64,000 nucleotides of DNA from a virus: positions 17,862 to 81,861 of the IMG/VR virus record IMGVR_UViG_3300022752_002570. The stretch is one strand, 5' to 3'. The translations under genes were made by a program, and so were the position numbers. Positions within the stretch are counted from its first letter, which is position 1. Each line of letters starts with the position of its first letter. This document shows positions 15,305 to 33,325 of this stretch, in pieces. The notes beneath the pieces are model-generated. The model saw only the letters and a program-made list of their open reading frames with translations. It did no database searches and was not told the origin of the DNA.

Positions 15305-18300
15305 TTAATTCCCAGTAGAAGTGACTATTGATGAAGTTCTTAATTGTGATGCAGTAATAGCATCAATAACTTCAATATCATTTACACTAGCACCGCTTAT
15401 CAATATCTCATTTGATAAACAAGATATTTCATATAAACTTCCAAAACTACTGTCATTTTTTGGTAAAATTACAAGGTTAACTATACTAGGCGTTAACATA
15501 TTCATAATATATGTGCTAAGTTCACTAAAATAAAATGATTGACCGAAATCCCAATTGTTTAAATCAAAGAAAGAATTAATTGCCTCAATAATTTTAGTTT
15601 TTATTTCATTATCAGTAGTTACAATTTTATTGTTCCTTACAGCCTTAAATTGTGCCTGTAAGTTAACGTCTGCTTTTTCACCAAATAATATTTTATATTT
15701 TACAGGATTAAAAACAATCTCGTCGCTTATTGCCTTAATTGATTGTAGATACGGTTTATAATTTTGTTCTAAATCTTGCGATGTTGGAGATAGAGGAGCA
15801 GTAGAAGTTACACCTTTTAGATAGTTTCTAAAATCGTTATCGTATCCAGTTGTTAACATGTATACATCGATTAGATTAGTTTTACTTGGATCTATTCTTC
15901 TTTCTTTTCCGCTATTGTGCAAATAATGAAACTTTAGATCACTTCTTCCATTCCTGGCAAAGTATTGATCAGTATAAACAAATGACGCAGTTTGTGAATC
16001 AAAGTATTTTACAACATTAATATCTTCGTTATAAAAATAAAATAAATTTCCATTTACTTTATCTGTTTCTTGTACAAAACTTTCATTTGGTAACGATATA
16101 AAAATACTAGCATCTTCTAATTCATATCTTAATCCATCAGACATTTTTTTAAAATACACAAAGTTTTCTCTATACCCAGACGGACCTATTTCTGAGGGTT
16201 TTACAATACTTTCAAAAGATTCAGGATCGTCTAATTGACCTGTATTATTAAAATCGTAAAAACTTACCTTTATCTTTTTAGGATTAACATATCCATCTAT
16301 CTCTATAACAGGTGAATCAATTTGCCAAACTCTATCAAATCCTAAACTTCCATCACCTGATGTGTTAATAGATAAGACTTCTATTTTATCTTTTATAACT
16401 TTATTTGTGACATAATCAAAATTAATAGAAGTCTCATCAATGTGAAACGCTGTTTGTGCAACACTTTCAAATATATAGTCTAGTGTTCTATATCTCACTT
16501 TGTAATAACTACCCGTCCATGTAAAAGATATAAGCCAACTAGAATCAAACCCCGAGTCGTCAACATTTCCTTGCTTTTCTAAACTAAAATTTTGTGTTAA
16601 ATTTAAATTTGAACTTAAAATAATATCCCATGCTCTTGTAGAATTATCAATTGTAAGTCCAAAATTTTTCTGCGTCATACAAATATTTGCGATTTCATTC
16701 TCTACAGAAAATCCTAAAAGTTTAGGATATTTTGGAATTACTTCTGCCGGTATGCTGCCTTGTGGTACTCTTGTTGAAAATATAACAGGTCCAGTTCCGT
16801 CATCTAATTGTCCTATTCCATTATTAGAGCCATCGCCGATAACCTGTTGAACTAATGCCCAAATATACGATCTTCCACCTTGAGGAGTAGTTGTCCCTGC
16901 TTTTAAATTATTCTTTTTATCATAGTAATAACCCGACGGAGCAGTAAATTTTACTAAAGAACCAGGCACAATGTATTTCATTTCACTTTGACTAAATTCT
17001 CCTACTGCAATAGCAAGATCATTGAATGTGAAATAACCTCTAGATTGAGTTGCAACTTTATTGACTTCAGTCCATCCTATACCTAATGCACCAAGATTTG
17101 GATTAGAAAATTTTTCAATATAGAAATTTTTCATATTTGGTGAAGCAATCACGTCGCTTAAATTATTTTTAACGAATCCTAAAACCTGATTGCGGTTTGT
17201 AAATGTTAACTGTAAAAGTCCCTCTTGTTCTTCCTGATATAATATGCCATCATCGGCAAAAATGTTTGTCTTACTGTATGCACCACTGACATCAGCAATA
17301 TCAAAATATCTGCTAATACCACTTGATATTCTATTAACACTTTTTACCTTTAGTATATCACTACCTGCATTCAAAGGCGCTATGTTATAGTCCTCACCAG
17401 TAATCATTCTATTTTGTAGATAATAATTTTGCGGGGCTTTGAGTTGTATGCTGGCATTAGATTCTGGACCGCTGCTATTAGCCACTGTATATAGCAATGA
17501 GAGAGTAAGTTGAAGTGTATGACTTTGTCCAAGACTATTAACATAGGGCAGAGCAACTATGACTCCACTAAAATTCTCAGGCTTTAATACATAGGTATTG
17601 GCATTACTCTGTCTATAAAATAATACAAAATCACCTTTTGGAAGATCGCCAAATACACCGTCACTGAAATTTAAATCTATTTGATCATTTTCTCTAGAAG
17701 TCACAGCATAAAATGTTCTAAGATCTTTACTTAGACTATTATAAATGACATTGTTATTTTGTGAAGCAGAATTAACCTTGGTCCACAATTGACTGAAATT
17801 ATTAGCATTATCTTTTTGCCACAACCAAATATCTGTATCATTTATATTAGTTGTATTAACACCAATAATTTCATTTGGTACAGGATTGTCAACCGTAAAG
17901 TTTGCTACATTTAACTTACCTTGCCTAAAATGCACAAAAAAACCAGTATTTGCACTACCAGGACCTTGATTATCATTTTTGTAGATATAACTAAACTTGT
18001 TAGCAGGTGTAGGAGGTTCTTCATAAATGTAGTCTGTACCTGAAAACGTGCAAGGCACGATTTCAAAATTCATTTGAACACCGTTGATATTTTTATTAAA
18101 ACTGAATAAAGGTACATCTTGGTTGTCACTAGCAAACTTGTAGTTTTCAGTAGTAACGCCACTAATAACTGCTTTATCTACAGGAGTTCCAAAGTTTGAA
18201 GTAGATGCGCTATTAATAATATTAACAAATTGTTGATACCATTCTGGATTGGTAGAATCATTCCAACCTATAACTGTGTTTGCTAAATTTACACCATTAC

Positions 18301-26142: not shown

Positions 26143-27051
26143 ATGACCTCAACTGTAAACCTTGCCGGTAAAAAAGTCAAGTATCTAAATAATAGAGACT
26201 TATTATCGGAAATACACAAAAGTAAATGCAGTTTTTCAAGTTTTAGCAAAAAAGAATACAGCCAACACGACATTATTCTACCTTCTTTGAATAAAATTAA
26301 TATCAGAACTATCGCTCAGGCCAAAAAAAACCGTGCCAAAAGATTAGGCCTCGAAACATTTATGGAGGCAAGAAACTCTGGAGATAAAAAAATTAAACTA
26401 GCGGATTGCACTGTTGACTATAAAACCATATCAAAATTGGATCTTGTTTTTAGAATAATGACATTTGAACATGTGCCATTGGCGCCTGGTAGAAAGAAAA
26501 CTACCAAAACTACAGCAGACAGTCACGACAAAGTAAACTTTCCACCGTTTCAGCATTGGAAATTTGATGATTCAGAAGAACTAGTATGTGTAGGTAAAAG
26601 CCACTGGAAAGGAACTGTAAGTAAAGGAAAATTTTCAAAGGATCACGGGCGCATAACTGAAAATTTAGGTAGAATGTTTTTAAAACTTTCAGAACGTTAT
26701 GCCCATCGTTCAAACTGGAGAGGATATACCTATATCGAAGAAATGAAGGGTCAGGCAATTTTACAATTGAGTCAGATAGGATTACAGTTCGACGAATCCA
26801 AATCAGAAAATCCCTTTGCCTATTACACAGCAGCAGTTACTAATTCATTTACTCGTATTTTAAATATTGAAAAGAAAAATCAAAATATTCGAGACGACAT
26901 GTTAGAAGAAGCAGGACTAACTCCTAGCATGACGCGACAATATCAACACGAATTTTTGGAAGAAACTGCACGTCAAGCCGAACTGTATAAAAATATCAGA
27001 TTACCAAAAAGTGAAGATACTCCGGAAGAAGATGCAGAAGTCGAAGCTTGA
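26143..27051 (+). CDS. gp55: Late-transcription sigma factor, T4 gp55-like
   Basis: YLNNRDLL, SNWRGYTYIEEM, FDESKSENPFAYYT...NSFTRILNIEKK match gp55; upstream of gp47/gp46 as in T4-like phages. Confidence 0.85.
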   Translation: MTSTVNLAGKKVKYLNNRDLLSEIHKSKCSFSSFSKKEYSQHDIILPSLNKINIRTIAQAKKNRAKRLGLETFMEARNSGDKKIKLADCTVDYKTISKLDLVFRIMTFEHVPLAPGRKKTTKTTADSHDKVNFPPFQHWKFDDSEELVCVGKSHWKGTVSKGKFSKDHGRITENLGRMFLKLSERYAHRSNWRGYTYIEEMKGQAILQLSQIGLQFDESKSENPFAYYTAAVTNSFTRILNIEKKNQNIRDDMLEEAGLTPSMTRQYQHEFLEETARQAELYKNIRLPKSEDTPEEDAEVEA

Positions 27052-27096: not shown

Positions 27097-28110
27097 ATGA
27101 ACCTTTTTAAAAAGGTAGCCTGTTTTACCGACATACACTTTGGTCTAAAATCAAATTCTACCACACATCTTAAAGACTGTGAAGAATTTGTAGACTGGTT
27201 TATAGACACTGCAAAAAAAGAAGGTTGTGAAACTGCGATCTTTCTAGGTGACTGGAGTCATAATCGCAACAGTCTTAATCTAATAACTCTAGATACCAGT
27301 CTACGTTGTTTAGAAAAACTTGGACAATCATTTGAACAGTTCTTTTGGTTTCCTGGTAACCACGATCTATATTATAAGGACAAACGTGATATACATAGCA
27401 GTGCGTTCGGACGTCACATACCCGGCGTAACTATAGTAGATTCTGTTACCACTCTAGGCAATGTTACATTAGTTCCATGGCTAGTAGGTGATGAATGGCA
27501 GGCAATGAAAAATGTAAAAAGCAAATATGTATTTGGACATTTTGAATTGCCACTATTTTACATGAACGCAATGGTTCAAATGCCAGACACTGGCGAACTG
27601 AGAGCAGAATACTTTAACGGCCCTGATTACGTATTCAGCGGTCATTTTCATAAAAGACAAAGTAGAGGTATAGTACATTACATAGGTAATACTTTCCCGC
27701 ATAATTTCTCAGACACATGGGACGATGAAAGAGGTATGATGACTCTAGAGTGGAGTTGTAAACCTCAATATCATAACTGGCCTAATGCTCCAAAGTACAG
27801 ACATATAAAATTATCTGATCTAATTGATCAAAAAGATACTATAATGAAAAGTAAAATGTATCTTAAGGTAAATTTAGACATTGATATTAGTTTTGAAGAA
27901 GCTAATTTAATCAAAGAAACATTTACCAATGATTATGATATTAGAGAGATCAGTCTTATACAGGATAAAGTTAACCTTGATGGTACCTATGAGGACAATC
28001 CTGATACGCAGTTTGAGTCTGTCGATCAAATTGTTTCGGAACAATTGATTAACCTCGAAGGTGATCAATACGATAAAAAACTCATGCTTGAAATTTACAA
28101 CAATCTATGA
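27097..28110 (+). CDS. gp47: Recombination endonuclease, Mre11/SbcD-like
   Basis: Metallophosphoesterase motifs DIHFG, FLGDW, GNHD, GHF, SGHFH. Confidence 0.92.
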   Translation: MNLFKKVACFTDIHFGLKSNSTTHLKDCEEFVDWFIDTAKKEGCETAIFLGDWSHNRNSLNLITLDTSLRCLEKLGQSFEQFFWFPGNHDLYYKDKRDIHSSAFGRHIPGVTIVDSVTTLGNVTLVPWLVGDEWQAMKNVKSKYVFGHFELPLFYMNAMVQMPDTGELRAEYFNGPDYVFSGHFHKRQSRGIVHYIGNTFPHNFSDTWDDERGMMTLEWSCKPQYHNWPNAPKYRHIKLSDLIDQKDTIMKSKMYLKVNLDIDISFEEANLIKETFTNDYDIREISLIQDKVNLDGTYEDNPDTQFESVDQIVSEQLINLEGDQYDKKLMLEIYNNL

Positions 28111-29891
28111 CATTTCGAATAAAAAATCTAACCGTAAAAAACTTTATGAGCGTGGGTAATCAAACCCAGGCCGTTGATTTTAACAAGGCTAATCTAACTT
28201 TAGTGCTAGGATCTAATCTCGACCTAGGTGGTGATGATACTGGCAGTAGAAACGGTACTGGTAAAACTACTATCATAAATGCTCTCAGTTATGCACTTTA
28301 CGGGCAGGCATTAACTAACATTAGAAAAGAAAATCTTATCAATAAGATAAATGGTAAGAATATGTTGGTCACTGTTGAATTCGAAAAAAATGGTCTCCAA
28401 TATAAAATTGAGCGAGGTCGCAAGCCTAACATACTTAAATTCTTTGTTAATAATCAAGAAATACAAAACACACATAATGAAGATGAAAGCCAAGGAGATA
28501 GCAGAGAGACACAAAAGTATATTGAAGAAATGCTGAACATGAGCCATACCATGTTCAAACATCTGCTAGCCCTTAATACCTATACTGAACCTTTTTTGGC
28601 CATGAAGGCCGCAGATCAAAGAGAAGTTATTGAACAACTTCTAGGTATCACAATCTTATCAACCAAGGCAGAAGCACTCAAGAACGTTGTAAAAGAAACT
28701 CGAGATTCAATACAACAGGAAACCTTTAAAATAGAAAGCATTAAAACTGCTAACGAAAATGTTCAAAAGAGCATTGACAGCCTGCATATCAAAAGTTCTG
28801 CTTGGGAAAATAAACATCAAACTGAATTAGAAAATCTAGGTCGTGCCATTGTTAATCTTGAATCTGTTGATATTGAAGCAGAATTACAGGCACACAAAGA
28901 TCTAGCCATATGGTTAGAGAATGATCGCAAACTGACTCAACTTAGAAAACAAATGGCTACATTAGAAACTGCGGTCATGCAGTCGGCTAAAAGTGTAGAC
29001 AAATATTCTAAAGACTACAACATGCTGATGGGAAAAACGTGTCCGTCATGTAAACAAGGTTTACAAGATCATGACCACGAAGACATGATTAAAGAAGTTT
29101 CAAAGAATCTAGCAGACGCTAGCGAATATGCAGGCAAGGTAACATATGAGTACGGTCTAGTGGTCAATGAAGTTGAAGCAATCGTTAAACAGCCTAGGAA
29201 ACCAGATACCTTTTATGAAACAGAAGCAGAAGCATTAGGTCATAAAAATAATTTAAGTAATCTAGAAAAGGCTCTTATAGAAAAAGACAACGAAGGAAAC
29301 CCTTACCAAGAACAGATTGAAGAACTACAACGCACAGCCATTCAAGAAATTGATTGGACCAAGGTAAATGAACTAACTAGGTTGCGGGATCATCAAGAGT
29401 ATCTATACAAATTATTGACAAATAAAGATAGTTTTATTAGAAAAAAGATTATTGATCAAAATTTAACATATCTTAACAAACGTCTAACATATTATATCGA
29501 TAAACTTGGCTTGCCTCATAAGGTAGTTTTTCAAAATGATCTCAATGTAGAAATCACTCAGTTAGGACAAGAACTAGACTTTGACAATCTAAGTCGAGGT
29601 GAACGTAATAGATTAATTTTATCTATGAGTTTTGCATTTCGAGATGTATGGGAAGGCCTATATCAAAGTATTAATCTATTGTTTATTGATGAACTTGTTG
29701 ATGCAGGTATGGATAGTGCCGGTGTGGAAGCAGCACTAGCAGTTCTAAAGAAAATGAGTAGAGAAAGAAATAAAAATATCTATCTAATTAGTCACAAAGA
29801 TGAACTTGTTGGCCGTGTTAACAATGTTCTTAGGGTGATTAAAGAAAACGGCTTTACCAGTTATTCAAATGATCTAGAGTATGTTGACTGA
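28107..29891 (+). CDS. gp46: Recombination ATPase, Rad50/SbcC-like
   Basis: Walker A NGTGKTT, CPSC zinc hook inside coiled coil, LSRGE signature, Walker B LLFIDE, ISHK; ATGA overlap with gp47. Confidence 0.93.
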   Translation: MTFRIKNLTVKNFMSVGNQTQAVDFNKANLTLVLGSNLDLGGDDTGSRNGTGKTTIINALSYALYGQALTNIRKENLINKINGKNMLVTVEFEKNGLQYKIERGRKPNILKFFVNNQEIQNTHNEDESQGDSRETQKYIEEMLNMSHTMFKHLLALNTYTEPFLAMKAADQREVIEQLLGITILSTKAEALKNVVKETRDSIQQETFKIESIKTANENVQKSIDSLHIKSSAWENKHQTELENLGRAIVNLESVDIEAELQAHKDLAIWLENDRKLTQLRKQMATLETAVMQSAKSVDKYSKDYNMLMGKTCPSCKQGLQDHDHEDMIKEVSKNLADASEYAGKVTYEYGLVVNEVEAIVKQPRKPDTFYETEAEALGHKNNLSNLEKALIEKDNEGNPYQEQIEELQRTAIQEIDWTKVNELTRLRDHQEYLYKLLTNKDSFIRKKIIDQNLTYLNKRLTYYIDKLGLPHKVVFQNDLNVEITQLGQELDFDNLSRGERNRLILSMSFAFRDVWEGLYQSINLLFIDELVDAGMDSAGVEAALAVLKKMSRERNKNIYLISHKDELVGRVNNVLRVIKENGFTSYSNDLEYVD

Positions 29892-30186
29892 AGAATTAGA
29901 AAAATACAATGAAATGTATCGCAAAATGATTGATCATTTAGTGACATTGCATAATGCAAATATTACTTTCCAAAAGTTTCAAGGTAGAGATCGTGCTAAC
30001 GATGTTAAACGACAGTTTAGAGGCATTATGAAATTAAGTCGCGAATTGATAAAGCAATGCAGCAAAGTCAGTCGAGAGGGTTCTGATCGAAGAAAACTTA
30101 TAAGTACTCAAAGGAAAGAAGCCAAACGACTAAGGCAACAACAAAGACAAAAAAATGTGGCTGTATCAGGGGGAAACAATCAATGA
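29881..30186 (+). CDS. Hypothetical basic helical protein (101 aa)
   Basis: ORF overlaps the gp46 stop and the GIY-YIG start, so it is operonic; helical, Arg/Lys-rich C-half. Confidence 0.6.
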   Translation: MLTEELEKYNEMYRKMIDHLVTLHNANITFQKFQGRDRANDVKRQFRGIMKLSRELIKQCSKVSREGSDRRKLISTQRKEAKRLRQQQRQKNVAVSGGNNQ

Positions 30187-30586
30187 ACTACCAGAAACTT
30201 GCGTAGGATTCGTGTATATTATAACTAATACAGTAACAGGCAAGATGTACATAGGCAAAAAACTTAGTAAATTTTCAAAAACAACTTATAAAACTGTTAA
30301 ATTAAAAAACGGCACTAAGAAAAAGAAACGAATTAAATCTAAAATATCCTCAGACTGGCAGACATATTACGGCTCAAACGATCATCTCAATCAAGACGTA
30401 CTAAATTTAGGCACAGATAAATTTGTAAGAGAAATATTATACTTTTGTAATTCAAAGGCAGAATGTTCCTATATTGAGGCACGTGAACAATTTACTCGCA
30501 AAGTACTAGAATCAGACGAATACTATAACGGACAGATATCTGTTCGTGTCCATGGCTCACACATCAAAGGCAAACTAAACGGTTAA
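30155..30586 (+). CDS. Stand-alone GIY-YIG endonuclease (143 aa)
   Basis: GFVYIITNTVTGKMYIGKK, YYGS, catalytic-type E (YIEAREQ) and YYN motifs; Lys-rich insertion; no appended DNA-binding domain. Confidence 0.85.
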   Translation: MWLYQGETINELPETCVGFVYIITNTVTGKMYIGKKLSKFSKTTYKTVKLKNGTKKKKRIKSKISSDWQTYYGSNDHLNQDVLNLGTDKFVREILYFCNSKAECSYIEAREQFTRKVLESDEYYNGQISVRVHGSHIKGKLNG

Positions 30587-31000
30587 CGGCTAGCGCAGGC
30601 TAATATCATGCGCCCTAGACCTGGATCTCAGATCGCAGGGACGGAATGCTCACCGCCGTAGTGAGAACTCAACCACTACCCGAAAGGATGACGATCACTT
30701 AACTGCTGTGATTTGGTTGTTTGAAGTAGAAGGAGCAAAAAGACGCAGAAGTGATTCTGCACGTTCATATGATGAGGTAGTGTTCGTTATATGAGCCGCC
30801 GTTGTAATAAAGCCTGAACGAGTAGGTACCGGACAACCGCCTACGCTAAACTAGTTCTAACACTATGTGACTATGCTACTCAGATGATGCATACCTTTGC
30901 CCGCCCTGGGCAAAGAGTGACCACTTAATCTAGATGATACTAAAAGACAAAAAATGCTTCGAGTCTCGTAGACGAAGAAGCAAACGAACGTAGTTCGTTA
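30584..31000 (+). ncRNA. Candidate large structured non-coding RNA, family not recognised
   Basis: ORF-free, ~46% GC by hand count against AT-rich spacers elsewhere. At least 10 stems, GNRA loops, and a 14-bp stem with four G-U pairs that form only on the + strand. Confidence 0.65.
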
Positions 31001-31001
31001 C

Positions 31002-31026
31002 TAAATATTGATTATTCCGGAATAAT
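31002..31026 (+). promoter_or_regulatory. Late promoter TAAATA plus perfect 16-bp palindrome ATTATTCCGGAATAAT
   Basis: TAAATA 31002-07; palindrome 31011-26 ends 2 nt before ATG 31029. Confidence 0.55.
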
Positions 31027-31028
31027 TT

Positions 31029-32339
31029 ATGCGATTACATCAAGCACTAGGTCAACAGACTATCTTTGAAAGTATAGGAGGAACTGATCCCTACTTCAAA
31101 ACATGGCAACGAGACATACATCCCGTATTATGTGAAGTTGCTCTAAACCCTGATCAGATAAATCAATTATTCAAATCTATAGAGAAGGGTGGAGGAAGAT
31201 CTCTTCTAGGTAAAGCCAAAGATGCTATAAGTGGTGCTACAAATAAAATTAGTGATGTATGGTTTAATAAGTTTGGAGGAATGTTGCAGAGCAGTGGACC
31301 TGTTCAAGCATTTGATCAAAAATTTGAAGAAATTAAATCCAGTATTGCAGCGAAGAATCCTAAATTGGCCGCAAAGTTAGCCAAATATGGAGAGTTTGCT
31401 AAGAACAATCCTAAATTACATAAGTTTTTATTAGCCATTGGAGGATCTGTAGCCGCTGCTGTAGGTGTTACTGTTGCGGGTGGAGTAGGCGCAGGTGCTC
31501 TAGCAGTGGGCACAGGTGCCGGTGTTGCTACTGGTATCATTAACATTGCTGATCGTTTATTACAAGGGCAAAAAGCATCAACTGCTATTGGACGTGGAGC
31601 CACTACAGGACTAGTAACAGGAATAACTGCTGCTGCCGCTACTAAAATTCTTAGTGGTGTGGCCAACAGTTTTAAGGCAGAATATGTTAATACAGTTCGA
31701 GGTGAGCGATTAATGAACGGAACATTTGACATCAATGGTCAGTGGACTTTTGTTACTGGCAGACCGGAAGATGTTAGGGCTCTCGGACAAGCCATGGATG
31801 CAGAAAACTATCAGTTATTCTACAGTCTTGTAGAAAAAATGAGGTCACCTGAATATGTAAAAGGTTTAGAAGCATCTCAAGAAATTATAAAACAGGCCAC
31901 TCAAAACTATCAATCCACGGCAGGTGTAATTAAAACTCTAGCACAGGCTGCAACAGCAGCCGCAGGTGGTGCAGCCAGTGCGGCTACAAATCAACAACCT
32001 AAAGAAAGTTTATCAGAAAATAAAATTTATGAATTATTTGGCATAACCGGTAACAAGATAGATGCTAGTAAATTAGAAAAGGCATGGAAGAAGGCAGGAA
32101 GTCCTACGGACAGTGATGAGATTGCGAAAATCTTACAGGGTGCTGGTGTGGATCCTACAATTATTTCACAGGCATTTAAGGAAATAGGAGCACCTACACC
32201 TCAAGGCCGTGTAGAACCAACACTAGGAACAGACACCAATACAACAGCCCAGCCAATAAATACAAAAGATATTGTAGCCAGGATAAAAAAATTACCTCCT
32301 GATCAACAAAAAATCTTAATACAACTATTAAAAGCATAG
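31029..32339 (+). CDS. Putative internal virion/ejection protein with Gly/Ala hydrophobic segments
   Basis: Late promoter; I/L-x-E motifs (IFES, LSEN, IYEL); long hydrophobic stretch FLLAIGGSVAAAVGVTVAGGVGAGALAVG. Confidence 0.5.
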   Translation: MRLHQALGQQTIFESIGGTDPYFKTWQRDIHPVLCEVALNPDQINQLFKSIEKGGGRSLLGKAKDAISGATNKISDVWFNKFGGMLQSSGPVQAFDQKFEEIKSSIAAKNPKLAAKLAKYGEFAKNNPKLHKFLLAIGGSVAAAVGVTVAGGVGAGALAVGTGAGVATGIINIADRLLQGQKASTAIGRGATTGLVTGITAAAATKILSGVANSFKAEYVNTVRGERLMNGTFDINGQWTFVTGRPEDVRALGQAMDAENYQLFYSLVEKMRSPEYVKGLEASQEIIKQATQNYQSTAGVIKTLAQAATAAAGGAASAATNQQPKESLSENKIYELFGITGNKIDASKLEKAWKKAGSPTDSDEIAKILQGAGVDPTIISQAFKEIGAPTPQGRVEPTLGTDTNTTAQPINTKDIVARIKKLPPDQQKILIQLLKA

Positions 32340-32347
32340 GAACTACA

Positions 32348-33325
32348 ATGAGAATACATGAAGTTATTGTTTTAGACCCGCAGATAAATGAAATTAGCGC
32401 CTTTGGTGCAGGATCAGGAATAGGCAAAGTTGCGGGAAACGTTGTAGGAGGTGTAAAAGATTTTTGGGCAGGCGCTAAACAGGGCTATAAAGATGCAAGA
32501 GCGGGATTTGTAACAGGACAAGGAGCAGGCACTACTGCGGCAACAACTGGCACCAATACACCCCAAGCCTCTGCTTCTACGGCTGGAACTGCTGCTCCAA
32601 CATCTGGCGCAGCATCAGCACCTAGTGGACAGGCAGCGTCTGCTGCACCACAACAGGCACCTACACAACAGGCACCTGCACCTCAAACTACACCGGATGA
32701 ACTAGACGATTTAAAGGCAACTATTGCAAAACTAAATCCCGAGCAGAAACAAGAAATTGCCTCACAACTACAGCAACCTGAAATAGAACAACCGTCAGCG
32801 CCTGCGGCAGGTGCAAAAACAGAACCTTTTGTTGATCCACGCAGTGCAGCGGCAAGAGGTCAGAAAGATCAAGGATTTGGATTTAATAGAGACACTGGTG
32901 TGGCGTTTAAATCACAAGCAGAAAAAGATGCTTACAATGCATCTAATCAGCAAGATGATGATGATTTTGAACCTGATTGGAATTTTGGTAAAGATTCTAA
33001 TGCTCCGTCTCCTGGAACTGCGGTTAATATAGGACAGGTTAAACAGCAAAGCGCCCAACAAGCACAGGCAGCACAGGCAGATAAACAAACTGCCCAACAA
33101 CAGATAGCAGCCACACAGGCCGCTAACGCAGCCAAGGCTAAACAAGATGCTGCTATCAAGGCCGCTAAAGATGCTGCTATGGCCAAGCCTGCGTTTCAAC
33201 AGACTGCATCAGATAGGTTAGCAATCAAACAAGCCAAGGACAGAGGTATTAGAGAATCTAAAAAATCCAAGAAGAAAAAAGTCGTTGCAGAATTTAATAG
33301 TAAGTTTCTAGGAATAACAATTTAA
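32348..33325 (+). CDS. Putative internal head protein, Ala/Gln/Pro-rich
   Basis: MRIHEV...QINEI N-terminus and IRES near C-terminus fit gp21-type sites; low complexity; SD AGGA. Confidence 0.5.
   Translation: MRIHEVIVLDPQINEISAFGAGSGIGKVAGNVVGGVKDFWAGAKQGYKDARAGFVTGQGAGTTAATTGTNTPQASASTAGTAAPTSGAASAPSGQAASAAPQQAPTQQAPAPQTTPDELDDLKATIAKLNPEQKQEIASQLQQPEIEQPSAPAAGAKTEPFVDPRSAAARGQKDQGFGFNRDTGVAFKSQAEKDAYNASNQQDDDDFEPDWNFGKDSNAPSPGTAVNIGQVKQQSAQQAQAAQADKQTAQQQIAATQAANAAKAKQDAAIKAAKDAAMAKPAFQQTASDRLAIKQAKDRGIRESKKSKKKKVVAEFNSKFLGITI

What the first reader, a model, noticed from the sequence alone, without database searches (positions are those of the whole stretch)
30155..31000. GIY-YIG nuclease gene directly followed by a ~420-nt densely structured, unassigned RNA
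Seen: this is the largest intergenic gap in a tightly packed window, about 46% GC by hand count, starting at the nuclease stop codon. Stems include CCTG-GATC/GATC-CAGG (30620-39), CTCAC/GTGAG (30649-65), a CAACCA/TGGTTG multiloop containing CC-GAAA-GG and ATCAC/GTGAT (30670-30719), GCAGAA-GTGA-TTCTGC (30745-60), a 14-bp stem with four G-U pairs (30763-96), GTAGG..CGG-ACAA-CCG-CCTAC (30822-44) and CTTTGCCC/GGGCAAAG (30895-915). AACGGC (30585-90) can pair with GCCGTT (30798-803) to close a ~220-nt domain. CAGGCT (30596-601) with AGCCTG (30811-16) is a possible pseudoknot. GNRA loops and G-U pairs point to a + strand RNA. Knowledge: nucleases encoded beside large ncRNAs (IscB-omegaRNA/HEARO, TnpB) proved to be RNA-guided, and GIY-YIG homing enzymes normally carry extra DNA-binding domains. 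Inference: this minimal GIY-YIG has only a Lys-rich insertion and may work as a ribonucleoprotein with this RNA next to gp46/47. A ribozyme or replication-origin transcript are alternatives.
Basis: partly seen in the sequence, partly recalled or inferred. Interest (0 to 1): 0.88.

Follow-up and report, generated by a model that had tools for sequence, protein, structure and literature searches.

The report
Large twin-box phage RNA, partly catalogued
The gene-free stretch behind a small nuclease gene of this uncultured giant freshwater phage encodes a real, heavily knotted RNA of about 445 bases whose first third is an already catalogued orphan motif, and the nuclease looks like a neighbour rather than the RNA's partner.

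Summary
Window 30587-31028 is the largest true ORF-free gap (442 nt, 45.0% GC against 37.7%). It encodes a + strand structured RNA of about 445 nt (about 30560-31005).

It is not wholly unassigned. Bases 30588-30722 match Rfam RF01718 (Polynucleobacter-1 RNA, function unknown) at 117.9 bits over the full model. The remaining roughly 290 nt match no Rfam family. They are conserved in dozens of uncultured T4-like phage contigs and in three bacterial loci.

A 91-pair model with two of the pseudoknots is 90.1% paired in 40 sequences, against 36-43% when the partners are slid. Two 3' modules 50 nt apart carry a short word that changes often but always in both copies (0 mixed of 85).

The proposed nuclease-RNA particle is not supported:
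- A complete 162-kb phage has the nuclease (72% identical) and no RNA.
- Cultured phages carry homologues with no room for the RNA.
- Five loci have a PD-(D/E)XK nuclease gene in place of the GIY-YIG gene.
- The bacterial copies have no GIY-YIG gene nearby.

The function is unknown. My best reading is a stand-alone ncRNA that presents two identical recognition words.

This scan has already found the same RNA on other DNA (143 notes in at least 125 genomes).

The parts
30155..30586 (+). GIY-YIG nuclease gene (143 aa). It is a neighbour of the RNA, and its last codons overlap the RNA's 5' leader.
   Evidence: Pfam PF19835 SegE_GIY-YIG, E 8.6e-32. PHROG 447 and homing-endonuclease PHROGs 7363 and 314. 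Single copy in the record.
30560..31005 (+). Whole structured RNA, about 445 nt. The 5' end is approximate.
   Evidence: Conserved over its full length in 53 of 80 nuclease-seeded loci and 90 of 120 pattern-seeded loci. The 91-pair model is 90.1% paired. RNA-library contigs of a relative all end about 74 nt before 30633.
30566..30587 (+). 5' leader with an AGGCAA motif (30568-73) and the 5' strand of a pseudoknot (30579-82).
   Evidence: The motif is kept even where the upstream gene differs. Pairs 30579-82 with 30656-59 form in 68 of 74, 77 of 85, 76 of 85 and 80 of 85 sequences. The pair 30581:30657 reads GC 50, AT 25.
30588..30722 (+). 5' domain, equal to Rfam RF01718 (Polynucleobacter-1): helices P1 to P4b.
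   Evidence: 117.9 bits, gathering score 37, model positions 1-141 of 141. Helices 1-6 are 83-100% paired with compensatory changes. The extra pair 30589:30600 reads GC 71, AT 10.
30745..30760 (+). Hairpin H5 (GNRA-type loop in the window).
   Evidence: Covarying pairs 30746:59 and 30747:58. Poorly aligned by MAFFT, so only 65.8% paired.
30763..30796 (+). Long hairpin H6. Its loop (30777-82) forms pseudoknot PK2.
   Evidence: Ten stem pairs show Watson-Crick covariation. All 13 pairs of the helix have double changes.
30861..30866 (+). 3' strand of PK2, pairing with the H6 loop 30777-82.
   Evidence: Helix 10: 99.6% paired, 6 of 6 pairs with compensatory changes. GC 76 AT 8; CG 71 TA 14; GC 68 AT 15.
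30801..30805 (+). 5' strand of PK1 (GTTGT), pairing with 30833-37.
   Evidence: Helix 11: 98% paired, 3 of 5 pairs compensatory. TA 53 CG 32; GC 60 AT 18 GT 7; TA 69 GC 8 AT 6.
30816..30857 (+). Helix H7 (30816-19 with 30854-57) enclosing H8 (30822-26 with 30840-44). H8 holds the near-invariant core GGTACCGG...ACCGCC and the PK1 loop 30833-37.
   Evidence: Helices 12 and 13 are 98.1% and 99.4% paired. The pair 30816:30857 reads GC 40, CG 32. Invariant columns are listed.
30867..30890 (+). Twin module 1 (GTGAC, about 7 variable nt, then the shared word).
   Evidence: Positions 30882 and 30886 match 30932 and 30936 in 85 of 85 sequences (AA 45, GG 40; AA 47, GG 38). Rarer variants are mirrored too. 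No Watson-Crick partner column was found.
30895..30915 (+). Hairpin H9 between the twin modules.
   Evidence: Helix 14 is 88.1% paired. The pair 30898:30912 reads TA 54, CG 10, AT 9.
30917..30940 (+). Twin module 2, exactly 50 nt after module 1 in the window.
   Evidence: The same two-module layout with another word occurs in the bacterial loci L326 and L327.
30957..30980 (+). Hairpin H10.
   Evidence: Helices 15 and 16 are 94.6% and 95.0% paired, and all 8 pairs have double changes.
30983..30999 (+). Terminal hairpin H11, the probable 3' end of the RNA.
   Evidence: Helix 17 is 98.9% paired with 7 of 7 pairs compensatory. In relatives a TATAAATA-type motif follows within 70 nt in 18 of 110 distinct tails, against 11 of 5000 random windows.

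Best explanation
The gap encodes a stand-alone, + strand, non-coding RNA of about 445 nt.

Its 5' third is the Rfam motif Polynucleobacter-1 (RF01718). Its 3' two thirds are an uncatalogued domain of the same RNA: a near-invariant core (GGTACCGG...ACCGCC), two pseudoknots, two 'twin' modules and two closing hairpins.

The RNA sits at the end of the gp55-like / gp47 / gp46 / small ORF / nuclease block of a giant (probably over 300 kb) T4-like freshwater phage. Homologous RNAs lie in genomic islands of a few small-genome Burkholderiales.

The GIY-YIG gene is a frequent but replaceable neighbour. It is probably a Seg-type free-standing endonuclease gene parked between gp46 and a conserved RNA gene. 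It is not a subunit.

How the RNA works is inferred, not shown. The knotted fold acts as a scaffold that holds two unpaired copies of one short word (7 to about 11 nt), 50 nt apart on either side of a hairpin. One and the same sequence-reading partner reads both copies, either two copies or sites of a nucleic acid, or a dimeric protein. That partner differs between phage lineages.

Shown: the RNA's existence, strand, extent and fold; its family membership; the in-step change of the twin words; and the unlinking from the nuclease.

Inferred: that it is a separate transcript, that it acts in trans, and that the twin words are recognition elements.
For: Family and extent:
- RF01718 at 117.9 bits over the full model.
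- No other Rfam match at E up to 1.
- The whole 420+ nt is conserved in 39 distinct full-length copies among 80 loci, and in 85 distinct copies overall.

Fold:
- RNAalifold predicts 61 pairs, 38 of them with compensatory changes.
- My 91-pair model is 90.1% paired against 36-43% for slid partners.
- 69 of 91 pairs have double changes, against 23-32 for slid partners.
- The covariation score is 0.394 against at most 0.088, and 0 of 500 shuffles reach it.
- Two further leader pseudoknots are supported.
- G-U 219 against A-C 44 cells.

Not a leader of a given gene:
- The nearest downstream ORF falls in 28 protein clusters over 95 distinct contexts.
- It is on the minus strand in 52 and the plus strand in 43.
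- A late-promoter-like TATAAATA follows the last hairpin in 18 of 110 tails, against 11 of 5000 random windows.

Unlinked from the nuclease.

Bacterial homologues keep both domains and the twin layout. They are sporadic: 3 of 151, 1 of 33 and 2 of 7 genomes. One sits beside an integrase gene and Zorya-like genes.

Twin words are identical in 85 of 85 sequences at both variable purines. All four purine combinations occur, and at least 12 distinct 7-mers are mirrored.

Weak hint of a separate, abundant RNA: three contigs of a relative were found in RNA libraries (one study, two samples). They have depths of 185, 14 and 37.6 and all end at the same point, about 28 nt before the nuclease stop. Pieces matching the nuclease gene had depths of 3.7-6.
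Against: - No transcript ends are shown. The RNA-library evidence is contigs of a relative. DNA can be present in such libraries, a shared contig end can be an assembly branch point, and one contig runs 1.76 kb on into downstream DNA.
- No sigma-70-like promoter stands out upstream, and no + strand intrinsic terminator was found.
- No partner for the twin words was found. No complementary site lies in the 64-kb window or in up to 4.5 kb upstream in 80 loci.
- Minimum-energy folds of the module region disagree between sequences.
- The GIY-YIG gene is the nearest upstream gene within 300 nt in 62 of 76 assessable loci, so a functional tie inside this phage group cannot be excluded.
- The loci are related phages, so synteny and function cannot be separated by counts alone.
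Confidence: 0.6

Rival explanations
1. The RNA is a cofactor or guide of the adjacent GIY-YIG nuclease, an RNA-guided or RNA-scaffolded nuclease like IscB-omegaRNA or TnpB.
For: - The RNA starts inside the last codons of the nuclease gene and runs downstream. From memory, this is the layout of TnpB and its RNA.
- The nuclease is only a catalytic domain.
- The GIY-YIG gene lies within 300 nt upstream in 62 of 76 assessable loci.
- The twin words change fast, as a guide might.
Against: - A complete 162-kb phage genome has a 72%-identical, equally long nuclease with the same Lys-rich stretch and no RNA.
- 20 of 80 nuclease-seeded loci lie in another context without gp46/47, and in 15 of them the next ORF overlaps the nuclease stop.
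- Homologues in three cultured phages have gaps of 29-148 nt and no RNA.
- Five loci carry a PD-(D/E)XK gene instead.
- Bacterial copies lack any GIY-YIG gene nearby.
- No target complementary to the twin words was found.
Confidence: 0.05
2. It is a cis-acting 3' element of the gp47-gp46-nuclease transcript. In this reading it is a structured 3' UTR that ends the operon and protects it from exonucleases, or that controls the nuclease gene it overlaps.
For: - It always lies at the end of the + strand block. In 52 of 95 contexts the next ORF is convergent.
- The last two hairpins are strongly conserved.
- The 5' leader overlaps the nuclease stop codon.
Against: - A fold of about 445 nt with four pseudoknots and invariant unpaired stretches is far more than a terminator needs.
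- The same RNA occurs in bacterial islands behind a divergent gene, where it ends no operon.
- It also occurs behind other genes in phages.
- No T-run terminator was found on the + strand.
Confidence: 0.12
3. It is a cis-regulatory leader, possibly a riboswitch, of the gene downstream. Weinberg et al. 2010 tentatively marked the motif this way ('cis-reg: y, switch: ?').
For: - The table row in PMC2864571.
- In 43 of 95 contexts a + strand ORF starts 12-126 nt after the RNA.
- In bacterial locus L326 an ORF follows on the same strand.
- One RNA-library contig runs on downstream.
Against: - Downstream genes fall in 28 unrelated clusters, and 52 of 95 are on the other strand.
- A late-promoter-like motif often sits between the RNA and the next gene.
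- The two bacterial downstream ORFs do not resemble each other by eye (not compared by a tool) and match nothing in the phage loci.
Confidence: 0.08
4. It works at the DNA or RNA-DNA level. It could be an RNA-primed replication origin, or a recombination or packaging site, with the twin words as protein-binding direct repeats.
For: - It sits beside the recombination genes gp46/47, at a break in synteny.
- The twin words never show wobble-type intermediates (0 of 85), as expected for reading at the DNA level or by a protein.
- The bacterial copy lies next to an integrase gene.
- L155 has five TAGGCACA repeats upstream.
Against: - Compensatory changes run through the whole length, with a 5:1 excess of G-U over A-C. 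This points to a folded + strand, not duplex DNA.
- The chromosomal bacterial copies are single and sporadic.
- I ran no test for an unwinding element or for replication.
Confidence: 0.08

Closest known systems
Polynucleobacter-1 RNA motif (Rfam RF01718; Weinberg et al. 2010, PMC2864571)
   Same: Window 30588-30722 is a full-length match (117.9 bits). It has the same helices, and the habitat and taxa fit (fresh water, Burkholderiales).
   Different: The Rfam model is 141 positions long. Here it is only the 5' third of an RNA of about 445 nt, with an uncatalogued 3' domain that is also present in the bacterial copies. The carrier here is a T4-like phage. The tentative cis-regulatory label does not fit the phage contexts. 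A variant class ('type B') keeps the 3' domain but has another 5' domain and no RF01718 match.
Large ornate bacterial and phage ncRNAs of unknown function (GOLLD, ROOL, OLE; names recalled)
   Same: Size over 400 nt, many pseudoknots and invariant unpaired stretches, carried by phages and mobile islands, no known function.
   Different: No Rfam match to any of them. No tRNA genes nearby (one search found no tRNA in the window). The in-step twin words are not a feature I know of in those RNAs.
Nuclease-associated guide RNAs (IscB with HEARO/omegaRNA, TnpB with omegaRNA; recalled)
   Same: A large structured RNA next to a small nuclease gene, with the RNA overlapping the 3' end of the ORF.
   Different: The nuclease fold differs (GIY-YIG). 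No transposon ends were seen, no guide-target match was found, and RNA and nuclease occur without each other.
Free-standing Seg-type GIY-YIG homing endonuclease genes of T4 (SegA-G; recalled, including segB in the tRNA gene region)
   Same: GIY-YIG domain of the SegE family. The gene sits between conserved genes and next to a conserved RNA gene. The same gene turns up in unrelated genome contexts. An unrelated nuclease gene can occupy the same slot.
   Different: It has only 143 aa and no C-terminal DNA-binding domain. It is present in most carriers of the RNA rather than sporadically. Homing or cleavage was not tested.

Membership tests
Rfam RF01718 Polynucleobacter-1 RNA | Covariance-model score at or above the gathering score (37 bits) over the whole model | tested here: met
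   117.9 bits, model positions 1-141 of 141, E 5.6e-25
Rfam RF01718 Polynucleobacter-1 RNA | Model helices kept with compensatory changes in relatives | tested here: met
   Helices 1-6 are 83-100% paired, and 18 of their 29 pairs have double changes. MI pairs.
Rfam RF01718 Polynucleobacter-1 RNA | Position in the 5' UTR of a gene (tentative 'cis-reg: y' in Weinberg 2010) | tested here: not met
   Over 95 downstream contexts there are 28 unrelated clusters, 52 on the opposite strand. This is a tentative label, not a defining feature of the Rfam model.
RNA-guided nuclease systems (IscB/HEARO, TnpB) | RNA and nuclease gene always occur together | tested here: not met
   Nuclease without RNA. RNA without this nuclease.
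RNA-guided nuclease systems (IscB/HEARO, TnpB) | A variable guide segment that matches a target or the element's flank | tested here: inconclusive
   The twin words vary, but no complementary site was found in the 64-kb window or in up to 4.5 kb upstream in 80 loci. Whole genomes were not scanned.
RNA-guided nuclease systems (IscB/HEARO, TnpB) | RuvC or HNH nuclease with an RNA-binding part | tested here: not met
   Only a SegE-type GIY-YIG domain covers residues 2-128 of 143. No match to any solved structure by sequence.
Seg-type free-standing homing endonucleases | N-terminal GIY-YIG catalytic domain | tested here: met
   PF19835, E 8.6e-32. GenBank annotators note cd10444 GIY-YIG_SegABCDEFG on the phiM12 homologue.
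Seg-type free-standing homing endonucleases | C-terminal DNA-binding domain | tested here: not met
   The protein ends 15 residues after the domain.
Seg-type free-standing homing endonucleases | Cuts the cognate site in genomes that lack the gene; patchy distribution | not testable with these tools
   Indirect evidence only: the gene occurs in several unrelated contexts.
   The purine inside the would-be box is A in 47 of 85 sequences (GAUAAU). The bacterial word is RGCGAAA.
GOLLD / ROOL / OLE large ncRNAs | Match to the family's covariance model | tested here: not met
   No match at gathering score in the window, nor at E up to 1 in 30100-31100.

The most novel reading that the evidence does not exclude
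The RNA is the specificity subunit of an undescribed system shared by giant T4-like phages and bacterial genomic islands. The bacterial copy lies between a DUF6641 gene and a small integrase gene, beside Zorya-like defence genes. In this reading the two always-identical, fast-changing words are programmable recognition sequences. They would bring together two copies of one nucleic-acid target, or load two copies of one reader, for recombination, replication start, or defence and counter-defence. The small nucleases of two unrelated folds found next to it in phages could then be exchangeable effectors.
Probability: 0.1. Interest if true: 0.9.

Novelty: new variant of a known kind. Interest (0 to 1): 0.6.

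Why it matters
Polynucleobacter-1 has stood in Rfam since 2010 as a 141-nt orphan motif thought to be a leader.

The evidence here shows that the real unit is a large RNA of about 445 nt with four supported pseudoknots. Giant T4-like freshwater phages carry it, and so do bacterial islands. A second class shares only the 3' domain.

That places it among the few very large bacterial and phage ncRNAs of unknown function. It also gives a concrete handle for experiments: two short words that must stay identical.

The work also removes an attractive but wrong lead, an RNA-guided GIY-YIG nuclease. If a reader of the twin words were found, the mechanism could be new.

Tried and rejected
Expression. 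The look-up of sequencing runs listed no RNA holder for the stretch. Read laying at 80% likeness gave only contigs of a relative, so no transcript ends or levels could be read for this phage.

Partner of the twin words.
- The window was scanned for sites complementary to the two 14-mers, G-U allowed. Nothing scored above 13 of 14 outside the element itself.
- Up to 4.5 kb upstream in 80 loci gave only background scores of 6-10 of 10 at scattered places.
- Pairing of the modules with each other or with a nearby segment: no Watson-Crick partner column (best MI 0.2-0.4), and the minimum-energy folds are inconsistent.

Other ideas considered and dropped.
- Translational bypass. The 50-nt period equals the coding gap of T4 gene 60 (recalled). 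Rejected because no ORF crosses the region.
- C/D-box reading. Rejected.
- Group I intron, tmRNA, RNase P, known ribozymes and riboswitches. No Rfam match.

Searches that gave little.
- Bacterial homologues by a DNA pattern in genome contigs: the pattern was too loose. RF01718 through the genome search then worked.
- A 21-nt exact match of window 30834-54 lies inside a 489-aa ORF of another phage. It is not present in the window's own homologue, so I did not take it as meaningful.
- The nuclease is more conserved than gp46/47 (77.5% against 68.7% and 69.3% in 43 loci). I did not use this, because the loci were chosen by nuclease similarity.
- Cultured carriers of the RNA: no blastn match in 50,697 GenBank phage records.

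Literature.
- 'Polynucleobacter-1' occurs in 1 paper of the library.
- 'DUF6641' occurs in none.
- Two broader searches found nothing on this RNA.
- Of PMC2864571 I saw only passages found by term, including the table row. Its additional files, which may show the motif drawing and gene contexts, are closed.

Rows dropped or incomplete.
- In one search, 14 of the 90 element-bearing pattern-seeded loci were left out for having less than 700 nt upstream.
- In one search, 7 of 85 sequences did not fit the regex.
- In one search, 8 of 67 module pairs were 'mixed'. They looked like chance regex matches at other ACCGCC sites, but I did not inspect them one by one.
Full report
WHAT IS THERE. The window is part of an 81,861-base virus record rated 23% complete. 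The ORFs around the finding, all on the + strand, are:
- a late-sigma (gp55-like) gene at 26143-27051 (PHROG 12791);
- gp47 at 27097-28110 (Metallophos) and gp46 at 28107-29891 (SMC_N/AAA_23);
- a 101-aa ORF;
- the 143-aa GIY-YIG gene at 30155-30586 (PF19835 SegE_GIY-YIG, E 8.6e-32);
- a 442-nt gap;
- a 436-aa ORF from 31029.

The gap holds no ORF over 30 aa. It is the largest true ORF-free stretch of the window. Its GC content is 45.0% against 37.7% for the window. The + strand folds better than shuffled sequence (z -3.94, 0 of 100 shuffles). The - strand does not (z -1.72).

IT IS PARTLY CATALOGUED. An Rfam scan of the whole window at gathering thresholds gives one match: RF01718, Polynucleobacter-1 RNA, at 30588-30722 on the + strand. 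The score is 117.9 bits (cut-off 37) over model positions 1-141 of 141. A permissive scan of 30100-31100 adds nothing at E up to 1.

The only paper in the library with that name is Weinberg et al. 2010 (PMC2864571). I saw passages only. Its table lists the motif as a likely RNA, likely cis-regulatory, riboswitch status unknown, found in Burkholderiales and in fresh water or estuaries.

THE RNA IS MUCH LONGER THAN THE RFAM MODEL. The nuclease protein has at least 574 confirmed relatives in IMG/VR, of which the best 80 loci were kept. In 53 of them an nhmmer profile of the gap finds the element on the + strand just after the nuclease gene, and 39 are distinct full-length copies. Conservation runs from the nuclease stop to about 31005.

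A second, nuclease-independent seed was a 17-letter pattern from the invariant 3' core. It brought 120 more loci, and 90 of them hold the element. Together they give 85 distinct full-length copies.

FOLD. RNAalifold on 40 sequences predicts 61 pairs, 38 with compensatory changes. Mutual information on 85 sequences recovers all Rfam helices. It also recovers, in the 3' part:
- hairpins 30745-60 and 30763-96;
- helix 30816-19 with 30854-57;
- helix 30822-26 with 30840-44;
- hairpins 30895-915, 30957-80 and 30983-99;
- two pseudoknots: 30801-05 with the hairpin loop 30833-37, and the loop 30777-82 with 30861-66.

I wrote these as a 91-pair structure and counted it on the 40-sequence MAFFT alignment:

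| Measure | Model | Partners slid by 1-3 columns |
|---|---|---|
| Cells paired | 90.1% | 36-43% |
| Pairs with changes on both sides | 69 of 91 | 23-32 |
| Covariation score | 0.394 | at most 0.088 |

None of 500 shuffles reaches any of the observed values. The two pseudoknots are 99.6% and 98% paired.

With 36 nt more upstream, two further pairings appear:
- 30579-82 with the P3 loop 30656-59, where 30581:30657 reads GC 50, AT 25;
- 30588-91 with the P1 loop 30598-601, where 30589:30600 reads GC 71, AT 10.

So the RNA begins inside the last codons of the nuclease gene. An AGGCAA motif at 30568-73 recurs even where another gene lies upstream.

G-U cells outnumber A-C cells 219 to 44, so the + strand is the folded one.

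TWIN MODULES. Bases 30867-30890 and 30917-30940 are two copies of one layout: GTGAC, about 7 variable nt, then a shared word. In the window they are 50 nt apart, on either side of hairpin 30895-915.
- The two variable purines of the word are the same in both copies in 85 of 85 sequences (AA 45, GG 40; AA 47, GG 38). All four combinations occur.
- Rarer changes are mirrored as well, and at least 12 distinct 7-mers occur, each in both copies.
- The bases between GTGAC and the word are not homogenised. This argues for selection rather than copy correction (my inference).
- No column of the RNA pairs with these positions.
- No complementary site was found nearby.

The absence of any A/G mixed state suggests a reader that does not tolerate wobble. 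This is inference.

RELATION TO THE NUCLEASE. Among the 76 pattern-seeded loci with enough upstream sequence, the nearest upstream gene was:

| Nearest upstream gene | Loci |
|---|---|
| GIY-YIG, within 60 nt | 45 |
| GIY-YIG, 61-300 nt | 17 |
| GIY-YIG, further away | 5 |
| PD-(D/E)XK endonuclease (PF24608, E 2.5e-29) | 5 |
| Another ORF | 1 |
| None of these | 3 |

In the other direction:
- 20 of the 80 nuclease-seeded loci lack gp46/47. In 15 of them the next ORF overlaps the nuclease stop, which leaves no room for an RNA.
- One of these records is a complete 161,882-bp genome with terminal repeats. It has one nuclease copy (72% identical, same length, same Lys-rich stretch). It has no RF01718 match, no BLAST match to the element and no core pattern within two mismatches.
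- A 99%-complete 345-kb genome has one nuclease copy beside one RNA copy.
- In GenBank phages the nuclease has homologues of 36-52% identity in 60 records.
- In Melnitz, S-SRM01 and phiM12 these lie in unrelated contexts with 148, 88 and 29 nt downstream and no element.

The nuclease family therefore works without this RNA, and the RNA occurs without it. The pattern fits a free-standing, movable endonuclease gene lodged between gp46 and a conserved RNA gene. It does not fit a ribonucleoprotein. Homing itself was not tested.

NOT A LEADER OF ONE GENE.
- The nearest ORF after the RNA falls in 28 protein clusters over 95 distinct contexts.
- It is on the minus strand in 52 and the plus strand in 43 (the ORF calls are mechanical).
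- Where a + strand gene follows, a TATAAATA-type motif often lies just after the last hairpin: exact in 18 of 110 distinct tails, against 11 of 5000 random windows. This is the T4 late-promoter consensus, recalled.
- In the window itself the motif is degenerate.

A SECOND CLASS AND BACTERIAL COPIES. Sixteen pattern-seeded loci matched only the 3' half. Eleven loci of this 3'-half-only kind that I scanned have no RF01718 match. In its place they carry a different conserved 5' domain of about 190 nt, joined to the same 3' core.

RF01718 also matches bacterial genomes, sporadically:
- 3 of 151 genomes sampled from the order of a Paucibacter genome (Burkholderiales), all of 1.8-1.9 Mb;
- 1 of 33 in one family;
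- 2 of 7 in one genus.

In loci L326 and L327 the 5' domain is followed by a recognisable 3' domain. It has the ACCGCC core, two modules sharing the word RGCGAAA (R is A in both modules of one locus and G in both of the other), and the closing hairpins.

Around L326 the genes are Zorya-like (MotB_plug/OmpA, EH_Signature, SNF2 with Mrr_cat), then a divergent DUF6641 gene, the RNA, a 224-aa ORF and a 212-aa integrase-family gene. No GIY-YIG gene lies there, and no neighbour resembles a phage protein.

EXPRESSION. No RNA run holding the stretch was listed. I laid the locus at 80% likeness on three freshwater metatranscriptome runs (one study, two samples, contigs only). Contigs of a relative cover 30633-30725 and 30824-42 at depths of 185, 14 and 37.6. 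All three end 74 nt before 30633, about 28 nt before the nuclease stop. One contig runs 1.76 kb further downstream. Pieces matching the nuclease gene had depths of 3.7-6. This is a weak hint of a separate, abundant RNA and no more.

VERDICT. The 5' third is already known as an orphan motif, and the 3' two thirds are not catalogued. The twin words are the most unusual feature. The nuclease-RNA particle idea is not supported.

The same RNA has been reported repeatedly by this scan on other DNA, with the same conclusions. I reached mine before reading those notes. I used one of them only as a lead to search cultured phages.

Noticed in passing
L104, L110, L114, L116, L125, L153, L161 and others (for example L104:2220-2620): A second class ('type B') of the RNA. 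It has the same 3' core and twin modules but a different conserved 5' domain of about 190 nt. It has no RF01718 match.
   Followed up: partly
L127:3963-4484, also L196, L106, L118, L155: A PD-(D/E)XK endonuclease gene of about 173 aa (PF24608) sits where the GIY-YIG gene usually is, directly upstream of the RNA.
   Followed up: partly
L330 (bacterial genome G054, contig 4, 63000-82000): The bacterial copy of the RNA lies in an island with Zorya-like genes, a divergent DUF6641 gene, a 224-aa ORF and a 212-aa integrase-family gene. The DUF6641 gene is also the divergent neighbour in L327.
   Followed up: partly
window 30834-30854; L331:1002-1022: A 21-nt exact match of the window's RNA core lies inside a 489-aa ORF of another giant phage (G005). 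The window's own homologue of that ORF (15320-16669, minus strand, 37% identical) lacks it.
   Followed up: yes
L155, about 100 nt upstream of its element: Five direct TAGGCACA repeats sit just upstream of the RNA. Single AGGCAA motifs recur upstream of, and inside, the other elements.
   Followed up: no
window 30407-30449: A 43-nt stretch of the nuclease gene is matched, with 8 differences, by RNA-library contigs of very high depth (884, 23 and 105). The contigs continue into unlike sequence on both sides. Their origin is unknown.
   Followed up: no
window 31029-33325: The two ORFs after the RNA (436 and 325 aa) are Ala/Gly/Gln-rich with low complexity. Neither has a Pfam or PHROG family above threshold; there is only a weak DUF3040 hit below the cut-off.
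   Followed up: no
window 26143-27051: This 302-aa ORF is a long form of the late sigma factor (PHROG 12791, E 3.9e-84). T4 gp55 is much shorter (recalled).
   Followed up: no
window 30155-30586 and GenBank homologues: This small GIY-YIG protein family is widely annotated as 'NAD synthetase' in GenBank phage records and in PHROG 447. This looks like a propagated misnomer.
   Followed up: no
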